A stretch of DNA of 64,000 nucleotides, taken from NCBI GenBank assembly GCA_964358485.1, contig CAYHPY010000001.1:81382-145381 (forward strand), written 5' to 3'. The notes below the pieces were generated by a model. That model made no database searches. It was given only the letters and a program-made list of their open reading frames with translations, and had not been told where the DNA came from. Positions 32,012-54,838 of the stretch are shown piece after piece; within the stretch, counting starts at the first letter, position 1; each line of letters begins with the position of its first letter. Both the position numbers and the translations under genes were made by a program. This DNA comes from an uncultured Elusimicrobia bacterium (GTDB taxonomy: Bacteria > Elusimicrobiota > Elusimicrobia > UBA1565 > UBA9628).

Positions 32012-32174
32012 AATACGCAGACTGTGCGTATATTATAATGCGTAAAGTTAATAATTTCAAGTCTTTATACGCTAAATGTTCGTAGAATAAGCGAATTAAT
32101 CTACGCATGGTGGCTACTTGACGAAATCCCGCCGACCTGCTAAACTTGTTGTGTATAACTAACAACTGTTAGGT
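32012..32174. promoter_or_regulatory. AT-rich divergent promoter/operator region between the fic operon and the MNT/HEPN pair
   Basis: taatacgcagactgtgcgtatattataatgcgtaaag...tacgctaaatg...ctacgcatgg: five tacgc/gcgta half-sites, including the near-palindrome tacgcagac/tgtgcgta. Low GC relative to the flanks. Confidence 0.4.
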
Positions 32175-32804
32175 ATGACTAACGATATCCCCAGCGGCCC
32201 ATCGCTTCCCCAAGAAGACGCCCAAACGCGCGTCCTGAGATTCCTTTGGCGCAGCCGGAGCGAATGGAGCGGCCGGGAGGTCGCCCGCAAGGTGGGCTTG
32301 AGCGCGCCCGCCTGCCACGCGGCCCTCAAGAAGCTCGACGCCAGGGGGCTGGTTCTTTTCAGGCGCGTCTCGAACGTGCATCTATACCAGATTAACCCCG
32401 AGAACTATCTGGTCCAGAAGATCTTCGCGCGCCAATTCGAGGCCGAGGCGGCCATGCCCAAGGAGGTCGCCGCCCTGGTGGTGAAGTCCCTGGTCGATTC
32501 CCCCAAGACCGCCATCCAGGCCATCGTGCTTTTCGGCAGTATGGCGCGGGGCACGGGGCGCATCGGCAGCGACCTGGACCTCCTGGTTGTCCTTGCGGAG
32601 AAGGAAGGCGCCACGGCTCTGGAGCCGCGAATTGAGCGGCTAAGGGAACTGCTGTTCAAGCGCTTCAGCGTCCCTTTGTCGCCCTACATCCAAACCTTGT
32701 CCGAACTGAGGGAAAAGCACCAACAAAAGCTGCCGTTGATCGGAGAGATTCTTAAAGACGGACGGACCATTTACGGCCAAGAAATCAAGGAGTTGCTGCC
32801 ATGA
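32175..32804 (+). CDS. minimal nucleotidyltransferase (MNT/MntA-like) with N-terminal wHTH, putative antitoxin
   Basis: Pol-beta-type NTase motif LFGSMARGTGRIGSDLDLLVV, and an N-terminal wHTH (SGREVARKVGLSAPACHAALKKLDARGLV). Confidence 0.75.
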   Translation: MTNDIPSGPSLPQEDAQTRVLRFLWRSRSEWSGREVARKVGLSAPACHAALKKLDARGLVLFRRVSNVHLYQINPENYLVQKIFARQFEAEAAMPKEVAALVVKSLVDSPKTAIQAIVLFGSMARGTGRIGSDLDLLVVLAEKEGATALEPRIERLRELLFKRFSVPLSPYIQTLSELREKHQQKLPLIGEILKDGRTIYGQEIKELLP

Positions 32805-36863: not shown

Positions 36864-36867
36864 TATT

Positions 36868-36932
36868 GGTGCCAGGTATCCACTTTCTTAACATTCTTCC
36901 GGGGAAAGTTTAGAAAGTGGATACCTGGCACC
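36868..36932. mobile_element. MITE-like 65-bp element with perfect 21-bp terminal inverted repeats (copy 1)
   Basis: ggtgccaggtatccactttct...agaaagtggatacctggcacc flanking a 23-bp core (taacattcttccggggaaagttt). Sits 4 bp after the OMP stop codon; a near-identical copy is at 54774-54838. Confidence 0.55.
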
Positions 36933-40685: not shown

Positions 40686-40725
40686 TTCACTATTATGGTA
40701 AAATCGGGAAAGGCACTCAATAGAG

Positions 40726-41292
40726 GTGAAAATGAAAATTCTATTCCTCGTCATCGCTTTCCTCCCCGTGTTCGCATCGGCGGGAAATCCTATCCAAAAA
40801 ACAAAGCGGAATGCGCTACAGAAAAAATTTGACTCTTTGGTGTTGCGCCTGAATTCTATTCCGGGAGGCAAGTGCCTGAGTCAGGAAGTCGCTTCGTCTT
40901 TCGAGGTTCCGGAGCATTGGGAGTGCCGTTTGGAGGAAGTCGATGCTGAGTCCACCACCGATGGGATGGTGCATAACGCGAATCTCCTGGTGGAAATCTC
41001 TACGACAGCGGCCGAACGGGGAGCCAGGCGATTAGTGTTTTTTTCAATGGAGTGGGGTTCGGATCGCAGAAGCGTGGAATACTACACTTTCATCACTTCC
41101 CTGGACGGCGAACTGGTCAAGGCCTTGGAAACGCACAGCAAACGGGACGAAAAAGGCCAAGGGGTGAGGGGCTCGGCCATCGACATCCCCCAGGACCTAA
41201 AAGCCAAAGAAATCCGCGACCGCTATAAGCACGAACTCGAGTTCTGGCTCGACGGCAAGTACCGCAAGAAGCAGAAGCCGAAAAAGAACTAG
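40726..41292 (+). CDS. secreted hypothetical protein (left boundary paralog of the secreted-protein island)
   Basis: Signal peptide MKMKILFLVIAFLPVFASA. The C-terminus RYKHELEFWLDGKYRKKQKPKK matches the C-terminus of the protein at 52754-53350 ([18 protein letters not shown]). Confidence 0.5.
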   Translation: MKMKILFLVIAFLPVFASAGNPIQKTKRNALQKKFDSLVLRLNSIPGGKCLSQEVASSFEVPEHWECRLEEVDAESTTDGMVHNANLLVEISTTAAERGARRLVFFSMEWGSDRRSVEYYTFITSLDGELVKALETHSKRDEKGQGVRGSAIDIPQDLKAKEIRDRYKHELEFWLDGKYRKKQKPKKN

Positions 41293-41433
41293 CCGCCGCC
41301 CCCTTACGGATCGATGGTTTATTTACCATCAATCCCAGAGGGACCCAAGGGGATGCCCAAAAAGGCCGGCGGGAAGTAGGCCAATTCGCGCCCTTGACAG
41401 TTCCAGCCTCCGGCCCTATCCTATAGCGATCCC

Positions 41434-41853
41434 GTGACCCTATCCCGCCCCTGGCGTTTCGCCCTCGCGGGCGGCCTCTTCTTGGCCGCCGCGCCCATCC
41501 TTCAAGCGGGCACGGATTTTCTCAATTTCAGGGAGACCAGCGTTCCTCAGGAGGTCCGGGCCGATTTGGAGACAATCGGCTACGTCTTTGAAGAAAGATT
41601 CGGAGGCGTTCGAAAACCCCGTGAATGGCCCTTGGAAAAGGCTGAATATCTCGCCTTCCTGGAGCCTCACGACCTGAAAGCCAAGCCCATCGATGAAAGT
41701 CTTCGTGTTTCCTTGCTCCTTCGCGGCTACCGAATGGATCAGGACGCGGGACGCATACTGACCGGGGAGCCCGCCCGGCCACGAACTTGGAGATCCAAGC
41801 CTTCAAGAAATCCATGGAGGACGCCCAGCGGGCCAACAGCCTGGAGCGACTGA
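41434..41853 (+). CDS. secreted N-terminal ORF, possibly the frameshifted 5' part of the downstream HExxH gene
   Basis: Signal peptide MTLSRPWRFALAGGLFLAAAPILQAG. It overlaps by 67 nt, in another frame, the 41787 ORF, which lacks both a signal peptide and an ATG start. Confidence 0.4.
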   Translation: MTLSRPWRFALAGGLFLAAAPILQAGTDFLNFRETSVPQEVRADLETIGYVFEERFGGVRKPREWPLEKAEYLAFLEPHDLKAKPIDESLRVSLLLRGYRMDQDAGRILTGEPARPRTWRSKPSRNPWRTPSGPTAWSD

Positions 41854-43118
41854 CCCAATTCCTATCCGAGCAGAACCCCGATAGGCCGCTGCACTTCAAT
41901 CATTGGATGAAAGCGAAAGGGATGGGAGCGGAGGGCCCTCCCGGGTTGGTCGGCGCCCTCCAGGATCCCAACCAAAAAGCGGGCGAGCTGCTGTCAACCG
42001 CCCGCCAGGCTCAATTGGAAGGCGCCCGCGTTTTCGACGGCAAGAAATCCCTGCCTGACTGGGACAAGGACACTTTGCCGGTGAAGCCTGATTGGGGCGG
42101 GGCAAGCCGGGTGCCCTACGCGGGGGATGTGGAGCGGCGCTTGGGCTCCCTCTTAAGCGCCTCGGCGGAGACCCACCTGGCCAAGAACCCGGCGGGCCGT
42201 GAACTGCTGGACCGCTTCCGCGGCAAGGACGGCAAGGTGGAGCTGCCCGCCTTCCTCATCCTGCCGATCAACGACTCCATGGACGCCGCCTACTCGGCCC
42301 CCAACAAGGCGCTGATCTTCAATCAGACCTACGTCGTCAGGGGGATGACGGAAAAACTTCCCGAGAGGAAGCGATCGGAGCTCCGCCGGGAGCTGGCCGA
42401 CCCCAAGAAGTTCGCGGAGTATCTGTTGGCGCATCCCGAGGCCCGGGACGCCTTCATCGCCGGCCACGATGTTCAGATGGTCCACGAGTTGACCCACGGG
42501 TTTCAGGACCGCCTGGGGACGTTGTCGGAGGAGCAGGAGCGGGGAAACCTGCCGCAGGGGACCATCATCGAGAAGGAGACGGAGGCCTTTTTCGCGCATG
42601 CCAAGTACCTGCATCACAAATTGGTGCAGGATCCGGAGTCTGTGAGGGACAATCCGAGACTTGAGGAGTATGCCGAATTCATTAAAAGCGCTGAGGTTTT
42701 GGAAAAGATTGTTTCCGATGCTTACACGCAGAATTATCCGACGGGGGCGGCGACATTCCCTACCCTGAAATCCATCCAGAGGGAACGGATCAGCCAGGCC
42801 CGAATTTTAATAGGAGAGAGCGCGTACGAGAAAATCGGTGAATTGAAGCTTCGAGGCTTGCAAGCCGGCATGAAGGAATTGGAGGCCGAAGAGAGCCGAG
42901 TTTCGGCCAGGATGCTAAAATTCATGAATGACGAATACCCAGCGATTCAAATGGAGGGGCGAAGGCGATTGGCCGCCCTGTATATCGTGAAGGCGCGGCT
43001 TGAGCCGGAATGGTATAAACGGGATGGGTATTTAAATTCCGCCAAAGACTTGGTTTCCGATGAAAAATCTTTGCGCCTGATTGCGAGCTTGCGCACGGAG
43101 CCGCCCGAGGACGAATAA
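41787..43118 (+). CDS. HExxH-motif protein (putative zincin-like metallopeptidase)
   Basis: Contains VHELTHGF (HExxH). A TTG start is inferred (the first ATG is at 41814). Its 3' third is duplicated at 43936-44211. Confidence 0.5.
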   Translation: MEIQAFKKSMEDAQRANSLERLTQFLSEQNPDRPLHFNHWMKAKGMGAEGPPGLVGALQDPNQKAGELLSTARQAQLEGARVFDGKKSLPDWDKDTLPVKPDWGGASRVPYAGDVERRLGSLLSASAETHLAKNPAGRELLDRFRGKDGKVELPAFLILPINDSMDAAYSAPNKALIFNQTYVVRGMTEKLPERKRSELRRELADPKKFAEYLLAHPEARDAFIAGHDVQMVHELTHGFQDRLGTLSEEQERGNLPQGTIIEKETEAFFAHAKYLHHKLVQDPESVRDNPRLEEYAEFIKSAEVLEKIVSDAYTQNYPTGAATFPTLKSIQRERISQARILIGESAYEKIGELKLRGLQAGMKELEAEESRVSARMLKFMNDEYPAIQMEGRRRLAALYIVKARLEPEWYKRDGYLNSAKDLVSDEKSLRLIASLRTEPPEDE

Positions 43119-43645
43119 TGAGAAAGACTGTTTTCGCCATTTTTGCCGCCTTTTTCTCGGCCTGCGCCAATAAAACATCCGTTCCCGGCATGGAGTTGGC
43201 CGTTTACGAAGACCCATCGGGCCTATTCTCTTGTGAGGGTCCCGCCGATTGGCGCGTTCACGAACATCGAACGCATAAAGGTTTTGTCCAATTTTTCGGC
43301 CCGGCGGGAGACGCGCCCTTCGGAGCATCTATCGGCATCCATTACGTCCATCCCGATAATCCCGGTATTTTTACCCCGATCGACAAGTATCCCGCGCTGA
43401 TGTCATCCGGGGCCGTGCCGCGCGAGCGCCTATGGCGCGGCCAAAAAGTCATCGAGTTCGACTACCTAAAAAAGCCGTTCGAGATCCACGGCAAGGTCGA
43501 GCCGGGAATGCGGAAGCATTTAAGCGTGCTCATCCCCGCCAAGACCGGCTATTTCGTCCTCGACCATTCGGTCAACGAGAAATACCACCACGAGACTAAG
43601 CACGTGTTTGAGACCGTGGTCAACAGCTTTCGCCCGAAAGACTAA
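43118..43645 (+). CDS. lipoprotein, paralog A
   Basis: Signal peptide plus lipobox-like Cys (MRKTVFAIFAAFFSACANK). About 88 percent aa identity to 44211-44735; start is coupled to the upstream stop (TAATGA). Confidence 0.6.
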   Translation: MRKTVFAIFAAFFSACANKTSVPGMELAVYEDPSGLFSCEGPADWRVHEHRTHKGFVQFFGPAGDAPFGASIGIHYVHPDNPGIFTPIDKYPALMSSGAVPRERLWRGQKVIEFDYLKKPFEIHGKVEPGMRKHLSVLIPAKTGYFVLDHSVNEKYHHETKHVFETVVNSFRPKD

Positions 43646-43649
43646 ATTC

Positions 43650-43790
43650 AGCGTTTCGACTTGCCGCGGCGCCGTTTTTCCGGGGCTCTTGAGGCGCCCA
43701 GTGCATCCTGGAGCCGCCGCCGCCGTATCCTCGGCCTCGACCACAGCGCGTCTTCGGCCCCGGAAGGCGGCCTGCAGGCGCCGGAGCAAT
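43650..43790 (-). pseudogene. remnant of SEC-C-domain gene (internal deletion in duplicated copy A)
   Basis: The minus-strand fragment LRRLQAAFRGRRRAVVEAEDTAAA matches the C-terminal part of the intact gene at 44732-45799. Confidence 0.4.
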
Positions 43791-43807
43791 GGGGGCGCGG
43801 AATTAGG

Positions 43808-43850
43808 GAAAGCTTAAGTAGGGCGGTGCCAGGTATCCACTTTCTGCATT
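43808..43850. repeat. 45-bp junction repeat containing a solo MITE TIR
   Basis: agggaaagcttaagtagggcggtgccaggtatccactttctgca carries the 21-bp TIR (43825-43845). The same repeat ends duplicated copy B at 45838-45880. Confidence 0.6.
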
Positions 43851-43935
43851 CCCTACCCTGAAATCCATCCAGAGGGAACGGATCAGCCAGGCCCGAATTT
43901 TAATAGGAGAGAGCGCGTACGAGAAAATCGGTGAA

Positions 43936-44211
43936 TTGAAGCTTCGAGGCTTGCAAGCCGGCATGAAGGAATTGGAGGCCGAAGAGAGCCGAGTTTCGGC
44001 CAGGATGCTAAAATTCATGAATGACGAATACCCAGCGATTCAAATGGAGGGGCGAAGGCGATTGGCCGCCCTGTATATCGTGAAGGCGCGGCTTGAGCCG
44101 GAATGGTATAAACGGGATGGGTATTTAAATTCCGCCAAAGACTTGGTTTCCGATGAAAAATCTTTGCGCCTGATTGCGAGCTTGCGCACGGAGCCGCCCG
44201 AGGACGAATAA
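43936..44211 (+). pseudogene. duplicated 3' fragment (91 codons) of the HExxH gene
   Basis: Nucleotide sequence 43851-44225 is near-identical to 42755-43130. It encodes only the C-terminal 91 aa (MKLRGLQAGMKELEAE...), with no upstream gene body. Confidence 0.5.
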
Positions 44212-44735
44212 TGAGAAAGACTGTTTTCGCCATTTTTGCCGCCTTTTTCTCGGCCTGCGCCAATAAAACATCCGTTCCCGGCATGGAGTTGGCCGTTTAC
44301 GAAGACCCTTCGGGCCTATTCTCTTGCGAGGGACCCGCGGATTGGCGGGTTTATGAGCACAAAGGCGATAAAGGCCATGTCCAATTTTTCGGACCGGCGG
44401 GAAACTCGCCCTTCGGAGCCTCCATCGGCATACATCACTTGCACCCCAGCGAAGCCTGGTTTGTCCCGATCGACAAGTATCCCGCGCTGATGTCGTCGCG
44501 GGCCATTCCTAGGGAGCGCATGTGGCGCGGCCAAAAAGTCATCGAGTTCGATTACCTAAAAAAGCCGTTCGAGATCCACGGCAAGGTCGAACCGGGAATG
44601 CGGAAGCATTTAAGCGTGCTCATCCCCGCCAAGACCGGCTATTTCGTCCTCGACCATTCGGTCAACGAGAAACACCACCACGAGACGACGCAGGTATTCG
44701 ACGCCGTCGTCAACAGCTTCCGTCCCAAGGATTAA
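44211..44735 (+). CDS. lipoprotein, paralog B
   Basis: The same signal/lipobox N-terminus as 43118-43645, with a diverged central region (YEHKGDKGHVQFFGPAGNSP...HHLHPSEAWFVP). Confidence 0.6.
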   Translation: MRKTVFAIFAAFFSACANKTSVPGMELAVYEDPSGLFSCEGPADWRVYEHKGDKGHVQFFGPAGNSPFGASIGIHHLHPSEAWFVPIDKYPALMSSRAIPRERMWRGQKVIEFDYLKKPFEIHGKVEPGMRKHLSVLIPAKTGYFVLDHSVNEKHHHETTQVFDAVVNSFRPKD

Positions 44736-45799
44736 GTGCCGCGCCGCGGACCCCCGCGGCGCCGTTTTTTCGGGGCTTTGGAGGCGCCCAACGCTTCCAC
44801 GAGGCGCCGAGCCCGGTCCGCCAACTCCGCCGGGACCGGCAGGCCCAGGGCTTCCCGCATCCAGATGATGGAGGGGATGTTCAACGAGCCCGATAGTGCG
44901 TCGGGGGCGCGCGCGAGCGAGGACTCGTATTCCTTGAGCAGGTCGGCGAGAAACCTCCTCCCTTCTGAGTTGCCGGCGGCTTGGCGGGGGGTCCGGCCTC
45001 CCAAAGCGGGCACGGGTTCGTCCGGCCAGCGCCTTTCCCTTTCCTGGAGGGCTCCCGCCAGGGCGCTTCGGGGATCCGCCGCCGCCGTATCCTCGGCCTT
45101 GACCACAGCGCGTCTTCGGCCCCGGAAGGCGGCCTGCAGGCGCCGGAGCAATGGCGGCGCGGAATTGAGGAACGCCTGCCATGAAAGGCCGGGCTCATGG
45201 ACCTTGGCCATGCGGTAGGCGCCCTCTACCTCAAACTTGAGTTCCAAGCGCTCCAGAGGGGAGAACACGACGGCTTCGCCCCAGGCTTCCGCGGGTCCGC
45301 CCTGGCGCCTCAGGCGCATCCCCAAGACGTCCCAAACCGCCGCTTGGCGCGAGGACGACACGTCGGCCACATCGAACTTCTCGCCGGAGAAGAGATCCTG
45401 GACGGCCAGGCCCGTCCCGGGACGGACCTCAAGCACCTCGACGATCGTGACGGCCGTGGACTTATGCTTGGCCAACTCGGAGCGGTCGGAAGCGCTCAAG
45501 TCCTCGGCGCGCTCGGCCTCGAAGCGCTCCAGCAAGGTCCGTCCGCCCCGGCGGCGGCCGGTGATCAGCCAGTCCAAAAATAAGCCGAAACGGGGTCCCT
45601 CCTTGACCGGGCCGGCCTCTCCGTGTTCCTCCCAGGCGGCCTGCAGTTCGGCCTTGCCTGCCGCCTCGAGCGCGAAGGCGGCGATCTCCTCGGTGAGGGA
45701 CGTGAGGCGCGGCGTCGGGGCGCCGTCTTTCAGGCAGCAATTCTTATATTTCTTCCCGGAGCCGCAGGGGCAAGGCTGGTTTCGTCCGATTCTGCCCAT
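44732..45799 (-). CDS. SEC-C metal-binding motif protein
   Basis: N-terminal QPCPCGSGKKYKNCC (SEC-C/YecA-type Zn motif). The start is trimmed to MGRIGRN at 45799; 4-bp overlap with the paralog B stop. Confidence 0.6.
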   Translation of the reverse strand: MGRIGRNQPCPCGSGKKYKNCCLKDGAPTPRLTSLTEEIAAFALEAAGKAELQAAWEEHGEAGPVKEGPRFGLFLDWLITGRRRGGRTLLERFEAERAEDLSASDRSELAKHKSTAVTIVEVLEVRPGTGLAVQDLFSGEKFDVADVSSSRQAAVWDVLGMRLRRQGGPAEAWGEAVVFSPLERLELKFEVEGAYRMAKVHEPGLSWQAFLNSAPPLLRRLQAAFRGRRRAVVKAEDTAAADPRSALAGALQERERRWPDEPVPALGGRTPRQAAGNSEGRRFLADLLKEYESSLARAPDALSGSLNIPSIIWMREALGLPVPAELADRARRLVEALGASKAPKKRRRGGPRRGT

Positions 45800-45837
45800 A
45801 TATAAGAATAGGCTATCAATCTCAGAGGCGACCAAGG

Positions 45838-45880
45838 GAAAGCTTAAGTGGGGCGGTGCCAGGTATCCACTTTCTGCACT
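45838..45880. repeat. 45-bp junction repeat containing a solo MITE TIR (second copy)
   Basis: agggaaagcttaagtggggcggtgccaggtatccactttctgca; TIR at 45855-45875. Confidence 0.6.
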
Positions 45881-45896
45881 TTCCCCCGGGCCGATC

Positions 45897-46886
45897 CTAC
45901 CGCGCCAAATCGTCAAAGGCGGCTTGCGCGCGGCCATTGACGTAGTCCAGTTCCTTCTGCTCCACCCCCTCCATTTTCGCGACGGCTTCCATGAGTTGGG
46001 AGAGGTTGAAACGCATTAGAACGCAGGCCTCCCCGCTTTCCAGCTTCCAGGTCGCGCTTGGAGGGGTCTCCTGGAGAGCGGCGTCCAACGGCTTGCGCCA
46101 GGCCTTCATGGCCCAGGGTCGGGGACTTTCAGAGGCTATTTTCATTTCCTCGGGAGTCGGCGCGGGCATGTAGGGAGGGGACATCCAAGAGGCGGCGGCG
46201 ATATGCGCTCTCGCGAGCTTTCCGATTTCATCGCGAGCCATTTCCCGCCCATCGCGCCACGTCGCGGAGCTCGAGACGCTGCCAAAGCCGACTCCCTCGA
46301 AAAAGCGGCCTTCGGCTGTTTTGACGGCAGCCGAACCCCGTTGCGCCCAGGCCGGCTCGGGACCTAATTGGACGGCGGAAGAATCAAAAGCGATGAGGGC
46401 GTTATGGCGGTAGTATTGTTCGATCTTGTGGTCCAGGTTTCCCTGGGCCAGCACCGTTTTCACCGCTTCAGTGAGGGGAATCCGGACCAGGATGGATGGA
46501 GTTCCGGCAGGGGACTTCCACCGGGTCGTGGGGGGAGTTTTCTTGGCCAGGAGGAAAAGAGGGTCTTGCCAGCGAGGAGGTTTTCGCGGGATCCACTGCT
46601 CTTGGTCCTCATTAGGAAGATTGCCTGCGGTCGTAGACTCCATGTAAATGCGGGCCATGGTGTCGAAATGTTTTTTCGCCAAATCGTAGGCGGCCAAGCG
46701 GGCGGCTTCTTCGGTTTTACCGACGCCCTCGAAATGATCGCCTTCGGCCGTTTTGACGGCCGCCGTGCCCCGCTGGACCCAGGCGGGCACGGTTTCCGCC
46801 TCCCGTGCCCGGGGGCCCGCGCATGCCATGAGCGACAAAAAAATGGGCGGGGACAGAACTCTAAAGAAATCAATTCGGCGGTTCAT
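45897..46886 (-). CDS. lipoprotein with two tandem LPP20-like repeats
   Basis: Signal plus lipobox (IFLSLMACAG). Internal duplication: PAWVQRGTAAVKTAEGDHFEGVGKTEE versus PAWAQRGSAAVKTAEGRFFEGVGFGS. Confidence 0.5.
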   Translation of the reverse strand: MNRRIDFFRVLSPPIFLSLMACAGPRAREAETVPAWVQRGTAAVKTAEGDHFEGVGKTEEAARLAAYDLAKKHFDTMARIYMESTTAGNLPNEDQEQWIPRKPPRWQDPLFLLAKKTPPTTRWKSPAGTPSILVRIPLTEAVKTVLAQGNLDHKIEQYYRHNALIAFDSSAVQLGPEPAWAQRGSAAVKTAEGRFFEGVGFGSVSSSATWRDGREMARDEIGKLARAHIAAASWMSPPYMPAPTPEEMKIASESPRPWAMKAWRKPLDAALQETPPSATWKLESGEACVLMRFNLSQLMEAVAKMEGVEQKELDYVNGRAQAAFDDLAR

Positions 46887-47079
46887 CGGGTCTCATTGTA
46901 GCAGACGGCGGCCGCCGGGACCGGCAGGCCCAGTACCCCCGCGCCCCCTTACGGATCGATAGCTTATTTACAATCAATCCCAGAGGGACCCAAGGGGATG
47001 CCCAACCGCAGGCCCAAACTCCCGGGGCGGGGTTTCCCGAGGGCGACGCCCCCCGCCGGTTTCTTGCTACCATTCGCTC

Positions 47080-47628
47080 ATGAAGACCGAAGTCCGGCGC
47101 CTGAATCCCGAGACTCGCTGGGACTTCATGTCGCTGCGCGCCTACCCGGGCTGCGATTGGTGCTTTTGCGTGGCCTGGCATGTCCCGATCTGGGACGGCT
47201 GGAAGGAGCGGACCGCGGCGGAGAATCGGGCCCTGCGGGAGAATCTGTTTTCCCTGGGCCGCTACGACGGCTACCTGCTTTATGTGGACGGTCGGCCGTC
47301 GGGCTGGTGCCAGGTGGGGCCCCTGGCCTGGTTTCCCAAAATGGTCGGGCAATTCGGCCTGGAAGGGGAGCCCGAACAGACTCCGGTGGTGGGCTGCCTG
47401 GAAATCATCCCGGAGTATCGAAAACGGGGCTTGAGCCGGGTTCTCTTGGACGCGGCGCTCGCGGACTTGGGCCGCTCCGGCGTCCGGCGGGTCCTGGCCA
47501 TTCCCCGGGCCGGCCGGCACGAGGACGGAAAGGTTTGGACGGGGCCCATGGCGCTGTTTGAGTCGAGGGGTTTCAAGCCCCTGCGCGAGGCGGGGGAGCG
47601 GGTGGTGATGGAGTTCCTCGTTCCCTAG
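47080..47628 (+). CDS. GNAT family N-acetyltransferase
   Basis: 182 aa with acetyl-CoA-binding-like region LEIIPEYRKRGLSRVLLDAAL. Its 3' end is duplicated at 50100-50237. Confidence 0.65.
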   Translation: MKTEVRRLNPETRWDFMSLRAYPGCDWCFCVAWHVPIWDGWKERTAAENRALRENLFSLGRYDGYLLYVDGRPSGWCQVGPLAWFPKMVGQFGLEGEPEQTPVVGCLEIIPEYRKRGLSRVLLDAALADLGRSGVRRVLAIPRAGRHEDGKVWTGPMALFESRGFKPLREAGERVVMEFLVP

Positions 47629-47671
47629 ATTCCCCCTGCCCTGGCGTGTTCGGGGCGGAGGTGTTATCCTT

Positions 47672-48526
47672 ATGAGGATGCCAAAAAGGGGCCTTTGGGC
47701 GTTGGCGCTTTTATTCCTCCTTCCGGGAGCATGGGCGGCTCCACCCACCGATGAGGAGCTTGAGGCCGAGGACCGCAAGGAATTGGTCACGCCGGCGCCT
47801 CCGGATTTTAAGCCCGAGGACCAGGGAAAGAAGTTGAAGTTGACTCTTATTCCCCGGGACGCCGAAATCCACAGGGGGGAGGCCTTTTGGTTTCGCCTCG
47901 AAGTTCAAAACATTGGACGGACCCCTGTCCCTTTGAATGCGGAATGGTCATTTTTCAAGATCGGGTACGGTGAAGCGCTGGAATATCGATTCCTGGTGAC
48001 TCCTCCCAAGGGAGTTGAGAGGGAGGAGCCGGTCAATTTTTTCCCCACAATGGGGTATCGGTATTTTTCCCCAATCGTTCCCGGTGGCGATAAAATGTCT
48101 CCGGAGGAAAGGGCAGAGGCCTCTCGCCGTATTGAGGCGGAAATGCCATACAAGCGAGCCCGGGGATTCGGGCTTCGGATGCACTTGGCCCCAGGGGAGA
48201 CTCTCCGCACCCGCCCCTGGAAGCATCTGGAGCTAATCCAGGCATACAAGCGGTTGCGGCAGGGAGAAGATCCGTTTCCCCCTGTTCCCGGGGAATTTCG
48301 GGAAGTGGATTTCCACTCCATGGAATTCGATAAAGTCGGAACCTATCGAATTCGAATAGTTTTCACGGCTGATCCCTGGCTCAAGGCTCCGGATGGGGAA
48401 GAGATTGAGGAGGGCATCCGGCTTGGCCTTAGTCGGGAGTGGCAGATGGAGCAGTATAAGGCAAGACTTCGGGAATCCCTTGGCCGTTTCGAGTCGAACG
48501 TCGTTGAGGTTGAAGTCGTTCCGTGA
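47672..48526 (+). CDS. secreted protein, cassette copy 1 gene A
   Basis: Signal peptide MRMPKRGLWALALLFLLPGAWA. The first 49 aa are identical to 50281-51135, then about 65 percent identity; the C-terminus VVEVEVVP is shared. Confidence 0.6.
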   Translation: MRMPKRGLWALALLFLLPGAWAAPPTDEELEAEDRKELVTPAPPDFKPEDQGKKLKLTLIPRDAEIHRGEAFWFRLEVQNIGRTPVPLNAEWSFFKIGYGEALEYRFLVTPPKGVEREEPVNFFPTMGYRYFSPIVPGGDKMSPEERAEASRRIEAEMPYKRARGFGLRMHLAPGETLRTRPWKHLELIQAYKRLRQGEDPFPPVPGEFREVDFHSMEFDKVGTYRIRIVFTADPWLKAPDGEEIEEGIRLGLSREWQMEQYKARLRESLGRFESNVVEVEVVP

Positions 48527-50055
48527 TCGCGGGCTTGCTGGGTTCCTTCCTGCTGATTTTCTCCGGAGGCTTGGCCATGGCCGCCCCATGTCAGCCCCAA
48601 ATCCGGGACCGCCTATCTGCTTGCGAGCCGCCCAAGGCGGAACGCGATCTTCTTTTGGCGGTGGCTCGGAGAGTCGTCGAAGCCCATGGGATGTTTCAGA
48701 AATCCTTATCCCGGGAAGCCGCGTTAAGGAAAATGGCCGCAGGGGGCGAAGATTTGGACCTTCTTGGTCAATGGAAGCTGAGTTTTATCGAAATGGAATG
48801 GGAGCGCAAGCGGATGGAGTTATATTCGGAGCGCGCGCTGTCCGCGGCGCAAAAAATATACGGGATTGTTCCTCCGGTCGTTTCTGGAAACGTCGCCAAT
48901 GGCCCCATGGCGGGCCATCCGGTCAGTTGGAGTCCGCAGTTTTTGCGTTCCCGGGAAAACTACCGCCTTGGGGTTCGACCCGACGGCTCGGATTATTATA
49001 TGGAAACAGTCTTTGATCCCGGAGATGGTGGAATAACGGATGAGGACGGCCGGGTTAATATTGGCATCGGATCGTTTTATTTGGCAGCCGCGATGGGGGA
49101 TACCCTCTTTTTGGCCTTGACGGTACACCACGAAGGGTTTCACTTCTGGGAGCTATTGACTCGAGGTTGGGACACTCATGAGGCCGGGGAAAGTCGCGCA
49201 TGGGGCGAGACAGTCAAGGCGGCCGAGGCCATGGGGGCTGGAGAGGATGCGAAAAAGGCTGTCCACCATATCATGGCGGAAGTTGAGGAGGCGGCGCGGC
49301 AAGATGAATTGAATCCACCGTTCCATAGCGAGAAAATTCAGTTCGATGTGGCCTTGGACTACGAAAGAACCCAAATTGATTCCCATATTGCCGCAATGGA
49401 GCGAAAGGCATTGGACGCCCGGCTGGAATCAATGCGGGCCGAAGCCGCGGGGAAATCCGAGGAGGCCAAGAAGGCCGGAATGTTGGCCCGCTTGGAGGAG
49501 GAGGCCGCCCGCTGCGGGTTCAAGTTCCTTCACCCGGGCAATTGGAATCGATACGGGTTCTATGAAGAGGAGGTTCCGGGGAATAAGCACTTGGGGGCGC
49601 ACTATTATTTCGCCAGAGGCCTCACTTGGGATGAATTTCGGACGGTCCTATTTCTGGCGAGGGCTTGCCTGGATGAGGGGCTTAATGAGCCCTGCAACGA
49701 CGGCTTGGACATCATCAATCGTCGATGGGGTAAGGACGGCTTTGGGGAAGGGTGGGAACTGGCGGTGGAAGGCGGCCAGGGCGGGCAAAAGGCGTGCCTC
49801 GAATACCTTCAGGGACGGATCAAACCCCCCATGAACGTTCGCGGCATCGATAAGGCGGCCTCTCGGGCCTGGAAAGACCTCCGAAAGCGATGGAAGCGGG
49901 AGGGGGAGGCCGCCATGAGGCGCCACCGGCAACAGCAGGCGGAGGCCGAACGGCCGCGAAAACGCCGGGATTGGGAGGCTGATGATTCCGACGGGGAGAG
50001 CCGCTGCGGCAATGCGAATTCCGAAACCGGAATCGTGGGTTGCCGCTCCCGCTGA
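48523..50055 (+). CDS. secreted HExxH-motif protein, cassette copy 1 gene B
   Basis: Signal peptide, two Cys near the N-terminus (APCQPQ...SACEPPK), and an HExxH motif (TVHHEGFHFWEL). The C-terminal tail ...RCGNANSETGIVGCRSR is shared with 51132-52703. Confidence 0.6.
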   Translation: MIAGLLGSFLLIFSGGLAMAAPCQPQIRDRLSACEPPKAERDLLLAVARRVVEAHGMFQKSLSREAALRKMAAGGEDLDLLGQWKLSFIEMEWERKRMELYSERALSAAQKIYGIVPPVVSGNVANGPMAGHPVSWSPQFLRSRENYRLGVRPDGSDYYMETVFDPGDGGITDEDGRVNIGIGSFYLAAAMGDTLFLALTVHHEGFHFWELLTRGWDTHEAGESRAWGETVKAAEAMGAGEDAKKAVHHIMAEVEEAARQDELNPPFHSEKIQFDVALDYERTQIDSHIAAMERKALDARLESMRAEAAGKSEEAKKAGMLARLEEEAARCGFKFLHPGNWNRYGFYEEEVPGNKHLGAHYYFARGLTWDEFRTVLFLARACLDEGLNEPCNDGLDIINRRWGKDGFGEGWELAVEGGQGGQKACLEYLQGRIKPPMNVRGIDKAASRAWKDLRKRWKREGEAAMRRHRQQQAEAERPRKRRDWEADDSDGESRCGNANSETGIVGCRSR

Positions 50056-50237
50056 TCGGGCCGTCCTTTCCTCCCCGGTTCTGGCCCTTACTCCTGGCTT
50101 TGTCGGCTCCCGCCCGGGCCGGCCGGCACGAGGACGGGACAGTTTGGACGGGGCCCATGGCGCTGTTTGAGTCGCGGGGTTTCAAGCCCCTGCGCGAGGC
50201 GGGGGAGCGGGTGGTGATGGAGTTCCTCGTTCCCTAG
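50040..50237 (+). pseudogene. chimeric junction ORF: signal-peptide-like 5' part fused to a duplicated GNAT 3' fragment
   Basis: The 3' part (AGRHEDGTVWTGPMALFESRGFKPLREAGERVVMEFLVP) duplicates the GNAT C-terminus. The 5' part (SFPPRFWPLLLALSAPARAG) resembles the signal region of the gene at 52754. The junction is at the shared cccgggccggc. Confidence 0.5.
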
Positions 50238-50280
50238 ATTCCCCCTGCCCTGGCGTGTTCGGGGCGGAGGTGTTATCCTT

Positions 50281-51135
50281 ATGAGGATGCCAAAAAGGGG
50301 CCTTTGGGCGTTGGCGCTTTTATTCCTCCTTCCGGGAGCATGGGCGGCTCCACCCACCGATGAGGAGCTTGAGGCCGAGGACCGCAAGGAATTGGTCACG
50401 CCGGCGCCTCCGGATTTTAAGCCCGAGGGCGAAGAGCGGAAGCTGAAGCTGACGCTCATTGCCCGGGATTCGAAAATCCGCAAAGGCGAAAATTTTTGGT
50501 ATCGCCTCGAGGTCCAAAACGTCGGTCCTCGAGCCATTCCTTTTAAGGCGAAGTGGTCTTTTTTTAAGGTTGGATACGGAGAGGCGTTGAATTACCGTTT
50601 TCTGGTGACGCCTCCCGGCGGGGTCGAATTGGATCCGCCAATTCGGTTCATGTTGTCGATGGGTAGGGCCTATCTTGACCCTTTTGTTCCCGGTGGGGCA
50701 AAAATGTCGGTCGCCGAGCGGGCCGAAGCGGCTCGTAAAATTGCGGACGACATTCCCCGAAAAGAGGCGCGGGGTTTCGGGCTTCTGGTCAATTTGTCTT
50801 CGGGCGAGACTCTCCGCACCCGTTCCTGGGAATACTTGGACCAAGGCCGCGCCTATCGGCGGCTGAGACAAGGTGAGGATCCATTTCCTGCAACCCCGGG
50901 AGAATTTAGGGAATTGGCTCTCGCTTCGTTTAAATTCGATAAGGTCGGCACTTATCGTATCCGAGTGGAATTCGCGGCCGATCCCTGGCTTGTGGCTCCG
51001 GATGAGGAAGAGATTCAGGAGGGAATTGAGTTTGGCCTCACCCGTGAATGGCAAATGGAGCAGTATGAAGAGAGGGTCCAAAGATCCCTCGGCCGATTCC
51101 AATCCAATATCGTCGAAGTCGAAGTCGTTCCGTGA
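50281..51135 (+). CDS. secreted protein, cassette copy 2 gene A
   Basis: Paralog of 47672-48526. The upstream 190 bp (50238-50427) is identical to 47629-47818. Confidence 0.6.
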   Translation: MRMPKRGLWALALLFLLPGAWAAPPTDEELEAEDRKELVTPAPPDFKPEGEERKLKLTLIARDSKIRKGENFWYRLEVQNVGPRAIPFKAKWSFFKVGYGEALNYRFLVTPPGGVELDPPIRFMLSMGRAYLDPFVPGGAKMSVAERAEAARKIADDIPRKEARGFGLLVNLSSGETLRTRSWEYLDQGRAYRRLRQGEDPFPATPGEFRELALASFKFDKVGTYRIRVEFAADPWLVAPDEEEIQEGIEFGLTREWQMEQYEERVQRSLGRFQSNIVEVEVVP

Positions 51136-52703
51136 GAGTCGGGCTCCTCGCCCTTCTGTGGCTTATTTTCCCCGTTGGCCGGGCGGCTGCCGCCCCCTGC
51201 GATCTCGATCTTCAGAAACGCGTTTCGGTTTGTGAGCCGCCTAAGGAGGAACGCGAACGACTGATGAAAATGGTGCGGCGAGTCGTCGAGGCGCACGGGA
51301 TTTACCAGGATTCTTGGTCTCGGGAAATCACTCTGCGGGAAATGGCCGCCGGGAAGGAGGATTTGAATCTTCTGGGTAAATGGAGGCGGAGTTTGATCGA
51401 TGTTGAATGGCAACGGAAGAGGATGGAGTTGTATGCGGGGCGTGCTTTATTGGCGGTTCAGAGAATTTACGGAATTGTCCCCACCGCCATTTCCCGAGAA
51501 GTCTTCAATGGCCCGTTTGCGCGCCATCCTGCACGGTGGGAGCCGCGCTTCTTGCATTCAAGAAAAATCGGCGAGGGCGAATATCAGGCGGCGTATCGGT
51601 CCGAGAAGTGTCCGGATGGCTCGGAATATTTTTTAGAAACGAGATTCGGGTCTGGGGATGGTGGAGTAACTGACGAGGACGGGCAGGTTAATATTGGAAT
51701 TGAGGCGTTTTATTGGTCGGTCAGATATGGAAGCCCGCTCCTTTTGGCGTTGACGGTGCACCATGAGGAAGTCCATTTCTGGGAACTCGTGTCCAGCGGA
51801 TGGGACACGCATGAGGACGGGGAGAAGCGCGTGTGGGGAAAGACGCTCGCGGCGGCGGAGGCCATGGGAGCCGATGCTCTCATGAAGAATGACATTGAGC
51901 AACAAATGCTGAATTTTGAAAAGGACGCGGAAGGCGGGGGGGATGGAGTGGCGGCGTCGAGTTCCCCGTTTCATAGCGAGAATATTCAGTTCGATGCGGC
52001 CTTTGACTTCGAGAAAGCCTTGTTGGATTCTCAGATGGCGAATCTGGAACGCGGGGCCTTATCCCGGCGGCTGGAGGATTTGAGGGCCGAAGCCGCGGGG
52101 AAATCCGAGGCGGCCAAGAAGGCCGGGATGTTGACACGCTTGGAGGAGGAGGCCGCCCGCTGCGGGTTCAAGTTGCTTCACCCGGGCAATTGGGATCGAT
52201 ACGGGTTCTATGAAGAGGAAGTTCCGGGGAATAGGCACTTGGGGGCGCACTATTATTTCGCCAGAGGCCTCAATTGGGATGAATTTCGGACGGTCCTTTT
52301 TCTGGCGAGGGTTTGCCTGGACGAAGGGCTGGGGGAGCCTTGCAACGACGGCCTGGACATCATCAATCTGCGATGGGGAAAGGACGGCTTCGGGGATGGG
52401 TGGGAGCTGGCGGTGGAAGGCGGCCAGGGTGGGCAAGAGGCGTGCCTCGAATACCTCCAGGGGCGGCTCAAACCCCCCATGAGCGTTCGCGGCATCGACA
52501 CGGCGGCCTCGCGGGCCTGGAAAGACCTCCGAAAGCGTTGGAAGCGGGAGGGGGAGGCCGCCATGAGGCGCCACCGGCAGCAGCAGGCGGAGGCCGAACG
52601 GCCGCGAAAAATCCGGGATCGCGACACTGATGATTCCGACGATGAGCGCCGTTGCGGCAATGCGAATTCAGAAACCGGAATCGTGGGTTGCCGCTCCCGC
52701 TGA
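51132..52703 (+). CDS. secreted HExxH-motif protein, cassette copy 2 gene B
   Basis: Paralog of 48523-50055; HExxH present as TVHHEEVHFWEL. Conserved N-terminal Cys pair and C-terminal tail. Confidence 0.6.
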   Translation: MRVGLLALLWLIFPVGRAAAAPCDLDLQKRVSVCEPPKEERERLMKMVRRVVEAHGIYQDSWSREITLREMAAGKEDLNLLGKWRRSLIDVEWQRKRMELYAGRALLAVQRIYGIVPTAISREVFNGPFARHPARWEPRFLHSRKIGEGEYQAAYRSEKCPDGSEYFLETRFGSGDGGVTDEDGQVNIGIEAFYWSVRYGSPLLLALTVHHEEVHFWELVSSGWDTHEDGEKRVWGKTLAAAEAMGADALMKNDIEQQMLNFEKDAEGGGDGVAASSSPFHSENIQFDAAFDFEKALLDSQMANLERGALSRRLEDLRAEAAGKSEAAKKAGMLTRLEEEAARCGFKLLHPGNWDRYGFYEEEVPGNRHLGAHYYFARGLNWDEFRTVLFLARVCLDEGLGEPCNDGLDIINLRWGKDGFGDGWELAVEGGQGGQEACLEYLQGRLKPPMSVRGIDTAASRAWKDLRKRWKREGEAAMRRHRQQQAEAERPRKIRDRDTDDSDDERRCGNANSETGIVGCRSR

Positions 52704-52753
52704 CCGAGCCGTCCTTTCCTCCCCGGTTCCGGCATTGCTACAATCAATCCGGC

Positions 52754-53350
52754 ATGGCATTCTCCTCGGTTCTGGCCCTTCTCCTGGCTTTGACGGCCCC
52801 CTCCCGGGCCGGCGAGGCGCCCGCCGTCCCCACCTCCGCCTCCGCTCCGGCGAAGGCCGAGGTCAAGGCCTCCACCGCCGCCGCCAAGCCGGGGGCCGTT
52901 CCGGGGATGAAGAAGTTCGTCGCCCATGTCCTGGAGGAGGGGATGTCGGAATCCCTGCCCTCGGCCTTGGTCGCCGCCTATGAGCTTCCGGAGGGCCTGG
53001 ACGGAAGGATTTTGCAGGTCACTCCGCAGGAAACCACCGACGGCCTGCTCCACGCTTTCAACGCCCTGGTTCTCGAAGAAGAGCCCTCCAAGGTCCAGCG
53101 CTTGATCCTGCTGGCCCGCAAGCAGGCGGGCGACGGCCGGAACACCGAATTCCACGCCTTCATTTGCGCTCCCGACGGAACCTTGATCAGGGTGGTCCGC
53201 TCCGCCTGGAAAAACGACCCGGAGGGCCAGGCGATGGGCGCCTCGGCGTCGCATCGTCCGTTGAGCGCGGCGTCCCCGGCGGTCAAAGCTCTTTTCCGCC
53301 ACGAGCTGGATTTCTGGCTCAAGGGCCGCTTCCGGAAAAAGCAGGAATAA
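52754..53350 (+). CDS. secreted hypothetical protein (right boundary paralog of the island)
   Basis: Signal peptide [22 protein letters not shown] (start trimmed to 52754). The C-terminus [18 protein letters not shown] is like that of 40726-41292. Confidence 0.55.
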
Positions 53351-53351
53351 G

Positions 53352-54770
53352 ATGGCCCGCCAATCCGCCTACGACGTGGTCGTCATCGGCAGCGGGCCGG
53401 GCGGCGAGGGCGCGGCCATGAAGTCGGTGAAAGCCGGGCTCTCCACCGCGGTCGTGGAATCCTTCCGGGAAGTCGGGGGAGCCTGCACGCACCGGGGGAC
53501 CATCCCCAGCAAGGCCCTGCGCCAAGCCGTTCAGCAATTGGCCGAGTTTCGGCGCAATCCCTGGTATAAGCGCGCGGCCGCCCGCTTTTCCGTCGATTTC
53601 CCCGATCTCTTGAAGGAAGCCGACCGGGTGATGTCGGCCCAGGTGCGCCTGCGGACCTCGTTTTACGAGCGCAACGGGGTCAAGATTTTGGAAGGCCGCG
53701 CCGCCTTCGGCGGGAAAAACGAGATCCGGGTGGAGCATCCGGAGCACGGCGCCCTGGTCCTGAAAGCGGCCAATGTCGTCCTGGCCATGGGCTCCCGTCC
53801 TTACCGTCCCCCGGAGGTGGATTTTTCCCATCCCCGCGTGCTCGACAGCGACAAGGTCCTGGGCCTCAAGGAAACCCCGGCGTCGATCGTGATCTTCGGG
53901 GCCGGCGTGGTCGGCTGCGAGTACGCCTCCATTTTCCGGAGCCTGGGCTCGAAGGTAACCTTGGTCAACACCCGGGAGAAGCTTTTGACCTTCCTGGACG
54001 ACGAAATCATCGACGCCTTGAGCTACCACCTGCGCGACCAGGGCGTGATCCTCCTGCACAACGAGGAGCATGCCAAGGTGGAGGCCGACGAGAAGGGAGT
54101 TTCCTTGCATCTGAAATCCGGGAAAAAGATTCGGGCCGAGTGCCTGCTCTGGGCCAACGGCCGGACCGGCAACACCGATGGCATGGGGCTCGAGTCCCTG
54201 GGCGTCAAGCTCGACTCCCGGGGCAACGTCCAGGTGGACGAGAATTACCGGACCGCGGCCCCGCATGTCTTCGCGGTGGGCGACGTGGTGGGTTTCCCGG
54301 CCTTGGCCTCGGCGGCCTACGACCAGGGGCGCTTTGCCGCCACCCAGATCGTGGAGGGCCGCTGCGACGAGCGCTTGGCCCGGGACATCCCCGCCGGAAT
54401 CTATACTTTGCCGGAGATTTCCAGCGTCGGGCGCACCGAGCGGGAGCTCACGGCGGCCAAGGTGCCCTACGAGGTTGGCCATGCCTTTTTCCGGAGCCTG
54501 GCCCGGGCCCAGCTCATGGGCGAGACCGTGGGCATGCTCAAGCTTTTGTTTCACCGGGACACCCTGGAGATTTTGGGCGTGCACTGCTTCGGCTCCCAGG
54601 CCGCCGAGATCATCCACATCGGCCAGGCGATTTATTCCCAGAAGGGCCCGGCCAACTCCCTGCTCTACTTCATCAACACCACCTTCAATTATCCCACCAT
54701 GGCCGAAGCCTACCGCGTCGCCGCGCTCAACGGCTACAACCGCCTCAAAGGCATCGCCCCCAAGGCCTAG
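53352..54770 (+). CDS. sthA: soluble pyridine nucleotide transhydrogenase
   Basis: Near-collinear match to E. coli SthA/UdhA: [57 protein letters not shown]. Confidence 0.9.
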
Positions 54771-54773
54771 GAT

Positions 54774-54838
54774 GGTGCCAGGTATCCACTTTCTTAACAT
54801 TCGCCCGGGGAAAGTTTAGAAAGTGGATACCTGGCACC
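54774..54838. mobile_element. MITE-like 65-bp element with perfect 21-bp TIRs (copy 2)
   Basis: ggtgccaggtatccactttct taacattcgcccggggaaagttt agaaagtggatacctggcacc; begins 4 bp after the sthA stop. The core differs from copy 1 by 2 nt. Confidence 0.55.

What the first reader, a model, noticed from the sequence alone, without database searches (positions are those of the whole stretch)
40726..53350. 12.6-kb island of secreted proteins bounded by distant paralogs and enriched in HExxH-motif proteins
Two about 190-aa secreted proteins with matching C-termini (RYKHELEFWLDGKYRKKQ versus [18 protein letters not shown]) sit at 40726-41292 and 52754-53350 and bracket the island. Between them are three HExxH-motif proteins (41787, 48523, 51132), two paralogous lipoproteins, two paralogous secreted proteins, an LPP20-like lipoprotein, a SEC-C protein and a GNAT. 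None is a recognisable housekeeping gene. The whole unit could be an undescribed secreted peptidase/effector system, possibly with immunity-like lipoproteins, next to a receptor Ser/Thr kinase.
Basis: partly seen in the sequence, partly recalled or inferred. Interest (0 to 1): 0.6.

Follow-up and report, generated by a model that had tools for sequence, protein, structure and literature searches.

The report
Two duplicated exported metallopeptidase–partner gene cassettes
The "island" is not one secretion system: it is a patchwork built around two unrelated, undescribed gene pairs, each a predicted exported zinc peptidase with a small exported partner, both tandemly duplicated here, and one pair recurs in distant bacteria with an unexplained foreign codon signature.

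Summary
A1 and A2 are real distant paralogs (32% identity, E=9e-27). The three HExxH proteins, the SEC-C protein, the GNAT and the neighbouring receptor Ser/Thr kinase are all present. Three points need correcting:
- The "paralogous" lipoproteins and secreted proteins come from two tandem segmental duplications, which also left gene fragments and a chimeric junction ORF.
- The 41787 HExxH gene is the 3' part of a 562-aa gene broken by a 4-nt deletion.
- The LPP20 call has no support.

The zincin fold could not be tested, because the AF2 models were poor. Best reading: peptidase plus cognate inhibitor- or immunity-like partner cassettes. Interest is moderate.

The parts
40726..41292 (+). A1: 188-aa signal-peptide protein, distant paralog of A2, function unknown, atypical codon usage (GC3 0.66).
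   Evidence: No Pfam, NCBIfam, PADLOC or PDB-sequence hit.
41434..43118 (+). [not shown]
   Evidence: A promoter-like site lies at 41394-41422.
43118..43645 (+). [not shown]
   Evidence: A weak sub-threshold PsbP hit only.
43703..43848 (-). Internally deleted remnant of a duplicated SEC-C gene plus a half REP-like element. It marks the junction of tandem duplication A.
   Evidence: D5, D6.
43847..44211 (+). [not shown]
   Evidence: (D1).
44211..44735 (+). Lp2: 174-aa lipobox protein, 87% identical to Lp1 with a diverged central block. It is followed by a strong terminator-like hairpin at 44741-44762.
44732..45937 (-). SEC-C-motif protein. The likely true start is near 45799, giving 355 aa. Cytoplasmic, native codon usage, with a weak sub-threshold Xre/MbcA/ParS antitoxin C-terminal hit.
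45897..46886 (-). 329-aa lipobox protein with two internal repeats (P[AE]W[VA]QRG..AAVKTAEG..FEGVG). LPP20 membership is not supported.
47080..47628 (+). GNAT acetyltransferase, cytoplasmic, native codon usage. Its 3' end is the left boundary of tandem duplication B.
   Evidence: (D2).
47672..48526 (+). [not shown]
48523..50055 (+). [not shown]
50040..50237 (+). Chimeric junction ORF of tandem duplication B: an A2-like signal-peptide segment fused to the GNAT C-terminus at a CCGGGCCGGC microhomology.
   Evidence: translations; D2, D11; I9.
50281..51135 (+). S2: paralog of S1 (71% aa identity). The first 50 codons are near-identical to S1 and the body is at dS>1.
51132..52703 (+). [not shown]
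52754..53350 (+). A2: 198-aa signal-peptide protein, paralog of A1, native codon usage. It ends 2 nt before sthA, and the same arrangement holds in the relative.
36867..36932 (.). 66-nt REP-like palindrome. A second copy lies at 54773-54838 and half copies at 43825-43845 and 45855-45875. All six 21-mer matches in the window fall between 36.8 and 54.9 kb.
   Evidence: D5, D8.

Best explanation
The 12.6-kb stretch is a patchwork, not a single system.

WHAT IT CONTAINS
Its core is two unrelated two-gene cassettes. Each encodes a Sec-exported predicted zinc metallopeptidase (HExxH plus a conserved Glu on the following helix, a gluzincin-like pattern) and a small exported partner whose gene overlaps it by 4 nt:

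HOW THE REGION GOT ITS PRESENT FORM

SHOWN
- Export signals on both peptidases and both partners.
- Invariant H-E-H and a near-invariant Glu.
- Strict conservation of each gene pair in distant bacteria.
- Purifying selection on all copies.
- The duplication architecture.

INFERRED
- The HExxH proteins are active peptidases.
- Each partner binds its peptidase 1:1 in the periplasm and restrains or directs it, acting as a cognate inhibitor or immunity-like partner. Known precedents are emfourin with protealysin and PA0261 with the VgrG2b metallopeptidase.

A1/A2, the SEC-C protein, the GNAT and the repeat lipoprotein are neighbours with no demonstrated functional link to the cassettes.
For: PAIRING

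CATALYTIC MOTIF
- The AF2 secondary structure puts HExxH on a long helix after beta-strands and before a second helix in both models.

EXPORT

DUPLICATION

SELECTION
- dN/dS is 0.1-0.4 throughout.

ACCESSORY CHARACTER

PRECEDENTS
- Protealysin-emfourin operon (PMC9505478).
- VgrG2b C-terminal domain with the periplasmic or lipoprotein immunity protein PA0261 (PMC6899460).
Against: - There are no significant Pfam, NCBIfam, PADLOC or PDB-sequence matches, so peptidase activity rests on motif conservation alone.
- Nothing shows that the partners bind or inhibit the peptidases.
- The partner is upstream in one cassette and downstream in the other.
Confidence: 0.5

Rival explanations
1. [not shown]
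For: - Neighbourhoods in other bacteria are core envelope clusters: between ftsA and ftsZ (L091); between waaA and a GT9 heptosyltransferase, with lpxK downstream (L095); next to lptB/lptA/lptC (L088); next to an ECF sigma, anti-sigma and RseB-like gene (L093).
- S carries a lipobox-like Cys in four lineages.
- Purifying selection.
- No mobile-element genes seen nearby.
Against: - The family is rare: 183 representative clusters among 1.84 billion, and every looked-up 90% cluster has 1-4 members.
- Its position differs in every lineage.
- GC3 is 0.2-0.3 below that of the flanking core genes wherever flanks could be compared.
- Synonymous divergence is twice that of neighbouring genes, and the two window copies are deeply diverged.
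- Duplication and pseudogenisation in one strain.
Confidence: 0.25
2. One reading: the whole 12.6 kb is one secreted peptidase/effector system with immunity lipoproteins, delimited by the A1/A2 paralogs and possibly controlled by the adjacent receptor kinase.
For: - Eight of ten distinct genes encode exported proteins.
- The region averages 59.7% GC against 64.4% elsewhere in the window.
- A1 and A2 are true paralogs at the two ends.
- The REP-like element occurs only between 36.8 and 54.9 kb in the window.
Against: - In distant bacteria the two cassettes occur separately, and none of the other island genes accompanies them.
- A2, GNAT and SEC-C have native composition.
- A2 is tightly linked to sthA in both genomes.
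- No dedicated secretion-machinery, trafficking-domain or mobility genes were found.
Confidence: 0.07
3. The conserved HExxH sites bind metal but the proteins are not peptidases. They could be structural or chaperone-like envelope proteins, or hydrolases of non-protein substrates such as peptidoglycan or lipid-linked substrates. The partners would then be substrates or co-factors rather than inhibitors.
For: - No peptidase family is detected by sequence or fold.
- Several neighbourhoods are LPS or cell-wall clusters.
Against: - The invariant Glu inside HExxH and a conserved downstream Glu are the catalytic signature of zincins rather than a purely structural site. This rests on established knowledge of the MA clan.
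- The only weak Pfam hits are to metallopeptidase toxin families.
Confidence: 0.12
4. The duplications and paralog mosaics are artefacts of metagenome assembly, with strain variants collapsed or chained together, rather than real tandem copies.
For: - The window appears to come from a metagenome assembly: identical or near-identical contigs come from groundwater metagenomes.
- L087 shows many 1-nt deletions typical of low-coverage assembly.
- The junction of duplication B at about 50113 is not covered by any other contig I retrieved.
Against: - The junction ORF is a clean microhomology fusion.
- Both copies are intact ORFs under purifying selection.
Confidence: 0.05

Closest known systems
Protealysin-emfourin (M4in) bicistronic operon of Serratia proteamaculans (PMC9505478)
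   Same: A zinc metallopeptidase gene and the gene of a small dedicated protein inhibitor lie in one operon. The inhibitor binds the active-site region 1:1. The arrangement has been interpreted as toxin/immunity-like.
   Different: - Protealysin is an M4 thermolysin-like protease described there as intracellular.
- The partners S and Lp are unrelated to each other and match no Pfam family.
- Inhibition is not shown here.
VgrG2b C-terminal metallopeptidase with PA0261 (Tpe-Tpi type T6SS effector-immunity pairs) (PMC6899460)
   Same: An HExxH metallopeptidase acts in the periplasm and is neutralised through complex formation by a cognate periplasmic immunity protein. That protein is a predicted lipoprotein in some lineages. 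The immunity protein depends on disulfide bonds.
   Different: - Those toxins are fused to or delivered by T6SS components, and the immunity gene lies downstream.
- No T6SS genes are nearby.
Periplasmic protease plus lipoprotein adaptor (NlpI-Prc, LbcA-CtpA), and the periplasmic Zn-metallopeptidase BepA acting on LptD (own knowledge; BepA papers listed)
   Different: - Prc and CtpA are serine proteases.
Polymorphic toxin / orphan immunity arrays (CDI, Rhs; PMC3482391, listed)
   Different: - There are no trafficking or pre-toxin domains.
- The arrangement is fully explained by simple tandem duplication.

Membership tests
Zincin / gluzincin metallopeptidases (MEROPS clan MA(E)) | HExxH motif (two His zinc ligands plus the catalytic Glu), conserved across the family | tested here: met
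   [not shown]
Zincin / gluzincin metallopeptidases (MEROPS clan MA(E)) | Third zinc ligand: a Glu on a helix downstream of HExxH | tested here: inconclusive
   [not shown]
Zincin / gluzincin metallopeptidases (MEROPS clan MA(E)) | Zincin fold: mixed beta-sheet with an edge strand, an active-site helix and a Glu helix | tested here: inconclusive
   [not shown]
Zincin / gluzincin metallopeptidases (MEROPS clan MA(E)) | Sequence membership in a described peptidase family | tested here: not met
   [not shown]
Toxin/effector-immunity pair (T6SS Tpe-Tpi or polymorphic-toxin type) | Trafficking or delivery domain, or an adjacent secretion apparatus | tested here: not met
   Only Sec-type signal peptides are present. 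No PADLOC or Pfam hits to T6SS, T7SS, CDI or Rhs components in the island or its flanks.
Toxin/effector-immunity pair (T6SS Tpe-Tpi or polymorphic-toxin type) | Cognate small partner gene strictly adjacent to the enzyme gene and conserved as a pair | tested here: met
   [not shown]
Toxin/effector-immunity pair (T6SS Tpe-Tpi or polymorphic-toxin type) | Partner neutralises the enzyme; the enzyme is toxic without it | not testable with these tools
   Needs expression and binding experiments.
Genomic island (horizontally acquired unit) | Atypical composition across the whole unit | tested here: not met
   [not shown]
Genomic island (horizontally acquired unit) | Integration hallmarks: tRNA, integrase or transposase, flanking direct repeats | tested here: not met
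   No tRNA or tmRNA. No integrase or transposase domain in the ORFs scanned. The only flanking repeats are REP-like palindromes at convergent or terminal gene ends, 17.9 kb apart, enclosing core genes too.
Genomic island (horizontally acquired unit) | Present or absent as a block in related genomes | tested here: not met
   The relative has the two cassettes in different contexts (L001, L083). No closer genomes were retrievable: the genome-contig scan with SthA gave at best 66% identity.
LPP20 lipoprotein family (Pfam PF02169) | Match to the family profile | tested here: not met
   No hit for the 329-aa protein or for either repeat at E<=10.
SEC-C motif proteins (PF02810) | CPCGSGKKYKxCC metal-binding motif | tested here: met
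   E=2.7e-9, 37 bits against a cut-off of 20.4.
GNAT acetyltransferases (PF00583) | Match above the gathering score | tested here: met
   E=1.2e-5, 25.9 bits against a cut-off of 20.7.
PsbP / Mog1p-like fold (for Lp) | Match to the PsbP profile above threshold | tested here: not met
   17.3-17.5 bits against a cut-off of 23.5, covering the C-terminal 40 residues only. NCBIfam E=0.099. No PDB-sequence support.

The most novel reading that the evidence does not exclude

On this reading:
- It inserts into core envelope operons, even between ftsA and ftsZ.
- It keeps a foreign codon signature in every host.
- It diversifies by allelic replacement of the S body together with the catalytic half.
- The variable C-terminal Cys-loop or amphipathic tails serve as targeting or receptor-binding peptides for killing competitors, in the manner of a bacteriolysin.
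Probability: 0.15. Interest if true: 0.75.

Novelty: new variant of a known kind. Interest (0 to 1): 0.5.

Why it matters

For annotation, the result warns against reading clustered exported hypothetical proteins plus paralogs as one "system" when tandem duplication explains the paralogy.

Tried and rejected
The best hit was 66% identity across many phyla, so there is no synteny information and the organism's phylum remains unknown.
- Metagenome scans. Alignments A4 and A5 were too divergent to seed a search. A6 found nothing. A7 gave one locus, L088.
- PADLOC, NCBIfam and PDB-sequence searches of all island proteins returned nothing meaningful.
- Rejected: common origin of S and Lp (only the signal peptides align).
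- Rejected: homology between A2 and the third gene of the L088/L090 loci.
- Rejected: strain polymorphism in A1 between the window and L087. The differences are 1-nt deletions typical of a low-coverage assembly.
- Rejected: positive selection on the paralogs. dN/dS is 0.1-0.4 everywhere.
Full report
**Gene map**

ORF listing, Pfam and repeat analysis give this order:

| Gene | Coordinates | Notes |
|---|---|---|
| A1 | 40726-41292 (+) | signal-peptide protein |
| Lp1 | 43118-43645 (+) | lipobox protein |
| SEC-C remnant | 43703-43848 (-) | duplication by-product |
| Lp2 | 44211-44735 (+) | lipobox protein |
| SEC-C protein | 44732-45937 (-) | likely start near 45799 |
| GNAT | 47080-47628 (+) | acetyltransferase |
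| S1 | 47672-48526 (+) | signal-peptide protein |
| Chimeric ORF | 50040-50237 (+) | duplication junction |
| S2 | 50281-51135 (+) | paralog of S1 |
| A2 | 52754-53350 (+) | paralog of A1 |
| sthA | 53352-54770 (+) | flanking core gene |

**Checking the observation**

A1 and A2 align over 137 residues at 32% identity (E=9e-27), including the quoted C-terminal tail.

Composition predicts about 0.1 such motifs in the island's roughly 3,900 residues, and four occur. Across the crude 45-ORF set for the whole window, six occur against 0.53 expected. The fourth island motif, in Lp1, is not conserved in Lp2 and looks like chance.

SEC-C (E=2.7e-9) and GNAT (E=1.2e-5) are confirmed. "LPP20-like" is not: no profile hit for the protein or either repeat, even at E<=10.

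**The paralog pairs are tandem duplications**

- Unit A (42754-43846 and 43847-~44940, period about 1,093) and unit B (47504-50112 and 50113-~52760, period about 2,610-2,650) are direct repeats. Their first few hundred bases are 99-100% identical.
- Unit B's junction is a microhomology (CCGGGCCGGC) between the A2 signal-peptide region and the GNAT 3' end. The 65-aa ORF at 50040-50237 reads A2-like signal peptide followed by the GNAT C-terminus (D2/D11; I9).

**The copies are mosaics**

- In unit B, DNA identity is 100% across the GNAT tail, the spacer and the first ~43 codons of S.
- Synonymous divergence in the diverged block is saturated (dS of 1 or more). It is about 0.2 in the C-terminal half and 0 at the start. 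dN/dS is 0.1-0.4 everywhere.
- The diverged block is therefore older than the split from the nearest relative I could find (sthA dS 0.6). The flanks have either been homogenised by conversion, or the centre was replaced by a divergent allele.
- Both copies remain under purifying selection.

The orthologue P0005 is 562 aa, 88% identical and intact, with a signal peptide. The window lacks 4 nt (CCGT within GAGCCCGTCCGCCCGG). L087 has the same deletion. The signal peptide is thereby separated from the catalytic part.

**Is the island a unit?**

No.

- Two short contigs from one other sample (SRR22388291) represent a relative.
- No tRNA or Rfam element was found, and no integrase or transposase domain appeared in the ORFs scanned.
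- The REP-like 66-nt palindromes at 36867-36932 and 54773-54838 sit at gene ends. They enclose core genes as well.

- The word-indexed search found only self, the paralog and the relative.
- A full HMM search of 1.84 billion cluster representatives found 183 proteins at E<=1e-3, of which 104 are at E<=1e-10. Most are 450-600 aa.
- In a 93-member alignment with 12% mean column identity, the only invariant columns are H203, E204 and H207. E223 (ExxA[YW]), Y113, P138, G176, P194, C382, C425 and P486 are at least 90% conserved.
- 83 of 91 full-length members start with a hydrophobic segment.
- No member belongs to a Pfam family. Single members graze Tox-MPTase2 (E=0.0034) and Peptidase_M91 (E=0.0054).
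- The PDB sequence profile search hits only coiled coils.
- The twenty 90%-identity clusters looked up have 1-4 members, mostly from SRA assemblies. The only name given is "hypothetical protein".

| Locus | Neighbourhood |
|---|---|
| L088 | next to lptB/lptA/lptC |
| L090 | after a 5,243-aa protein; shares a third gene with L088 |
| L091/92 | between ftsA and ftsZ |
| L093/94 | beside a histidine kinase and an ECF sigma / anti-sigma / RseB-like set |
| L095/96 | between waaA and a GT9 heptosyltransferase, with lpxK downstream |

BLASTP of these S-like proteins against S1/S2 gives E=8e-11 to 4e-28.

- The two 717-aa relatives (L084-86 and L089, GC about 75%) are each followed by an overlapping 164/165-aa lipobox protein. 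It is homologous to Lp (E=1e-5, shared GWRV...FxGP...VLxH...SFRP motifs). Each is preceded by a lipid A acyltransferase.
- S and Lp are unrelated.

**An unexplained signature**

- The third gene in L088/L090 shares the low GC3.
- Other exported proteins in the same loci (lptA, the RseB-like gene, the OMP, A2) are normal.
- The proteins are only about 20-35% identical between lineages, so one recent transfer cannot explain this.

**Fold test**

This failed technically.

- Foldseek against PDB gave nothing below E=0.18.
- In both models HExxH sits on a long helix that follows beta-strands and precedes the helix with the conserved Glu. That is compatible with a gluzincin but is not evidence for one.

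**Interpretation**

Shown:
- Two exported HExxH families with catalytic-type conservation.
- Each is locked to a small exported partner gene.
- Both are duplicated here, and one is pseudogenised.

Inferred:
- Peptidase activity.
- A physical complex between enzyme and partner.

- Translational coupling, with the small protein translated first.
- Co-divergence of the S body and the catalytic half.
- The foreign codon signature.
- A different chromosomal position in each lineage.
- Rapid turnover.

The main rival is a housekeeping envelope protease with a lipoprotein adaptor, suggested by the lpt, LPS, dcw and ECF neighbourhoods. I cannot exclude it and give it about half the weight.

**Provenance**

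Noticed in passing
[not shown]
   Followed up: partly
[not shown]
   Followed up: partly
[not shown]
   Followed up: partly
window 36867-36932, 54773-54838, 43825-43845, 45855-45875: A REP-like 21-mer (GGTGCCAGGTATCCACTTTCT) forms two 66-nt palindromes at gene ends and two single copies. All six matches in the 64 kb lie between 36.8 and 54.9 kb. One half copy marks the junction of duplication A.
   Followed up: partly
window 41297-41360 and 46942-47005: A 64-nt intergenic direct repeat (95% identical) lies after A1 and upstream of the GNAT gene. Function unknown.
   Followed up: no
window 28464-32804: A separate low-GC patch (56-60%) holds a Schlafen-group-3-like helicase fused to an S24 peptidase domain, a DUF4172-Fic/DOC protein and an HTH-nucleotidyltransferase (MNT-like). 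It looks like a defence or toxin-antitoxin cluster, next to homoserine dehydrogenase.
   Followed up: partly
window 44732-45799 (-): The SEC-C-motif protein also gives a sub-threshold hit to the Xre/MbcA/ParS antitoxin C-terminal toxin-binding domain (E about 1e-3, 19-20 bits against a cut-off of 24.5).
   Followed up: no
[not shown]
   Followed up: partly
[not shown]
   Followed up: no
L087:8960-9480 (= window 40700-41100): The near-identical contig from another assembly has many 1-nt deletions in the AT-richer A1 region. These look like low-coverage assembly errors, not strain variation.
   Followed up: yes
window 7151-12820 (-): A 1,889-aa ORF elsewhere in the window was not examined.
   Followed up: no
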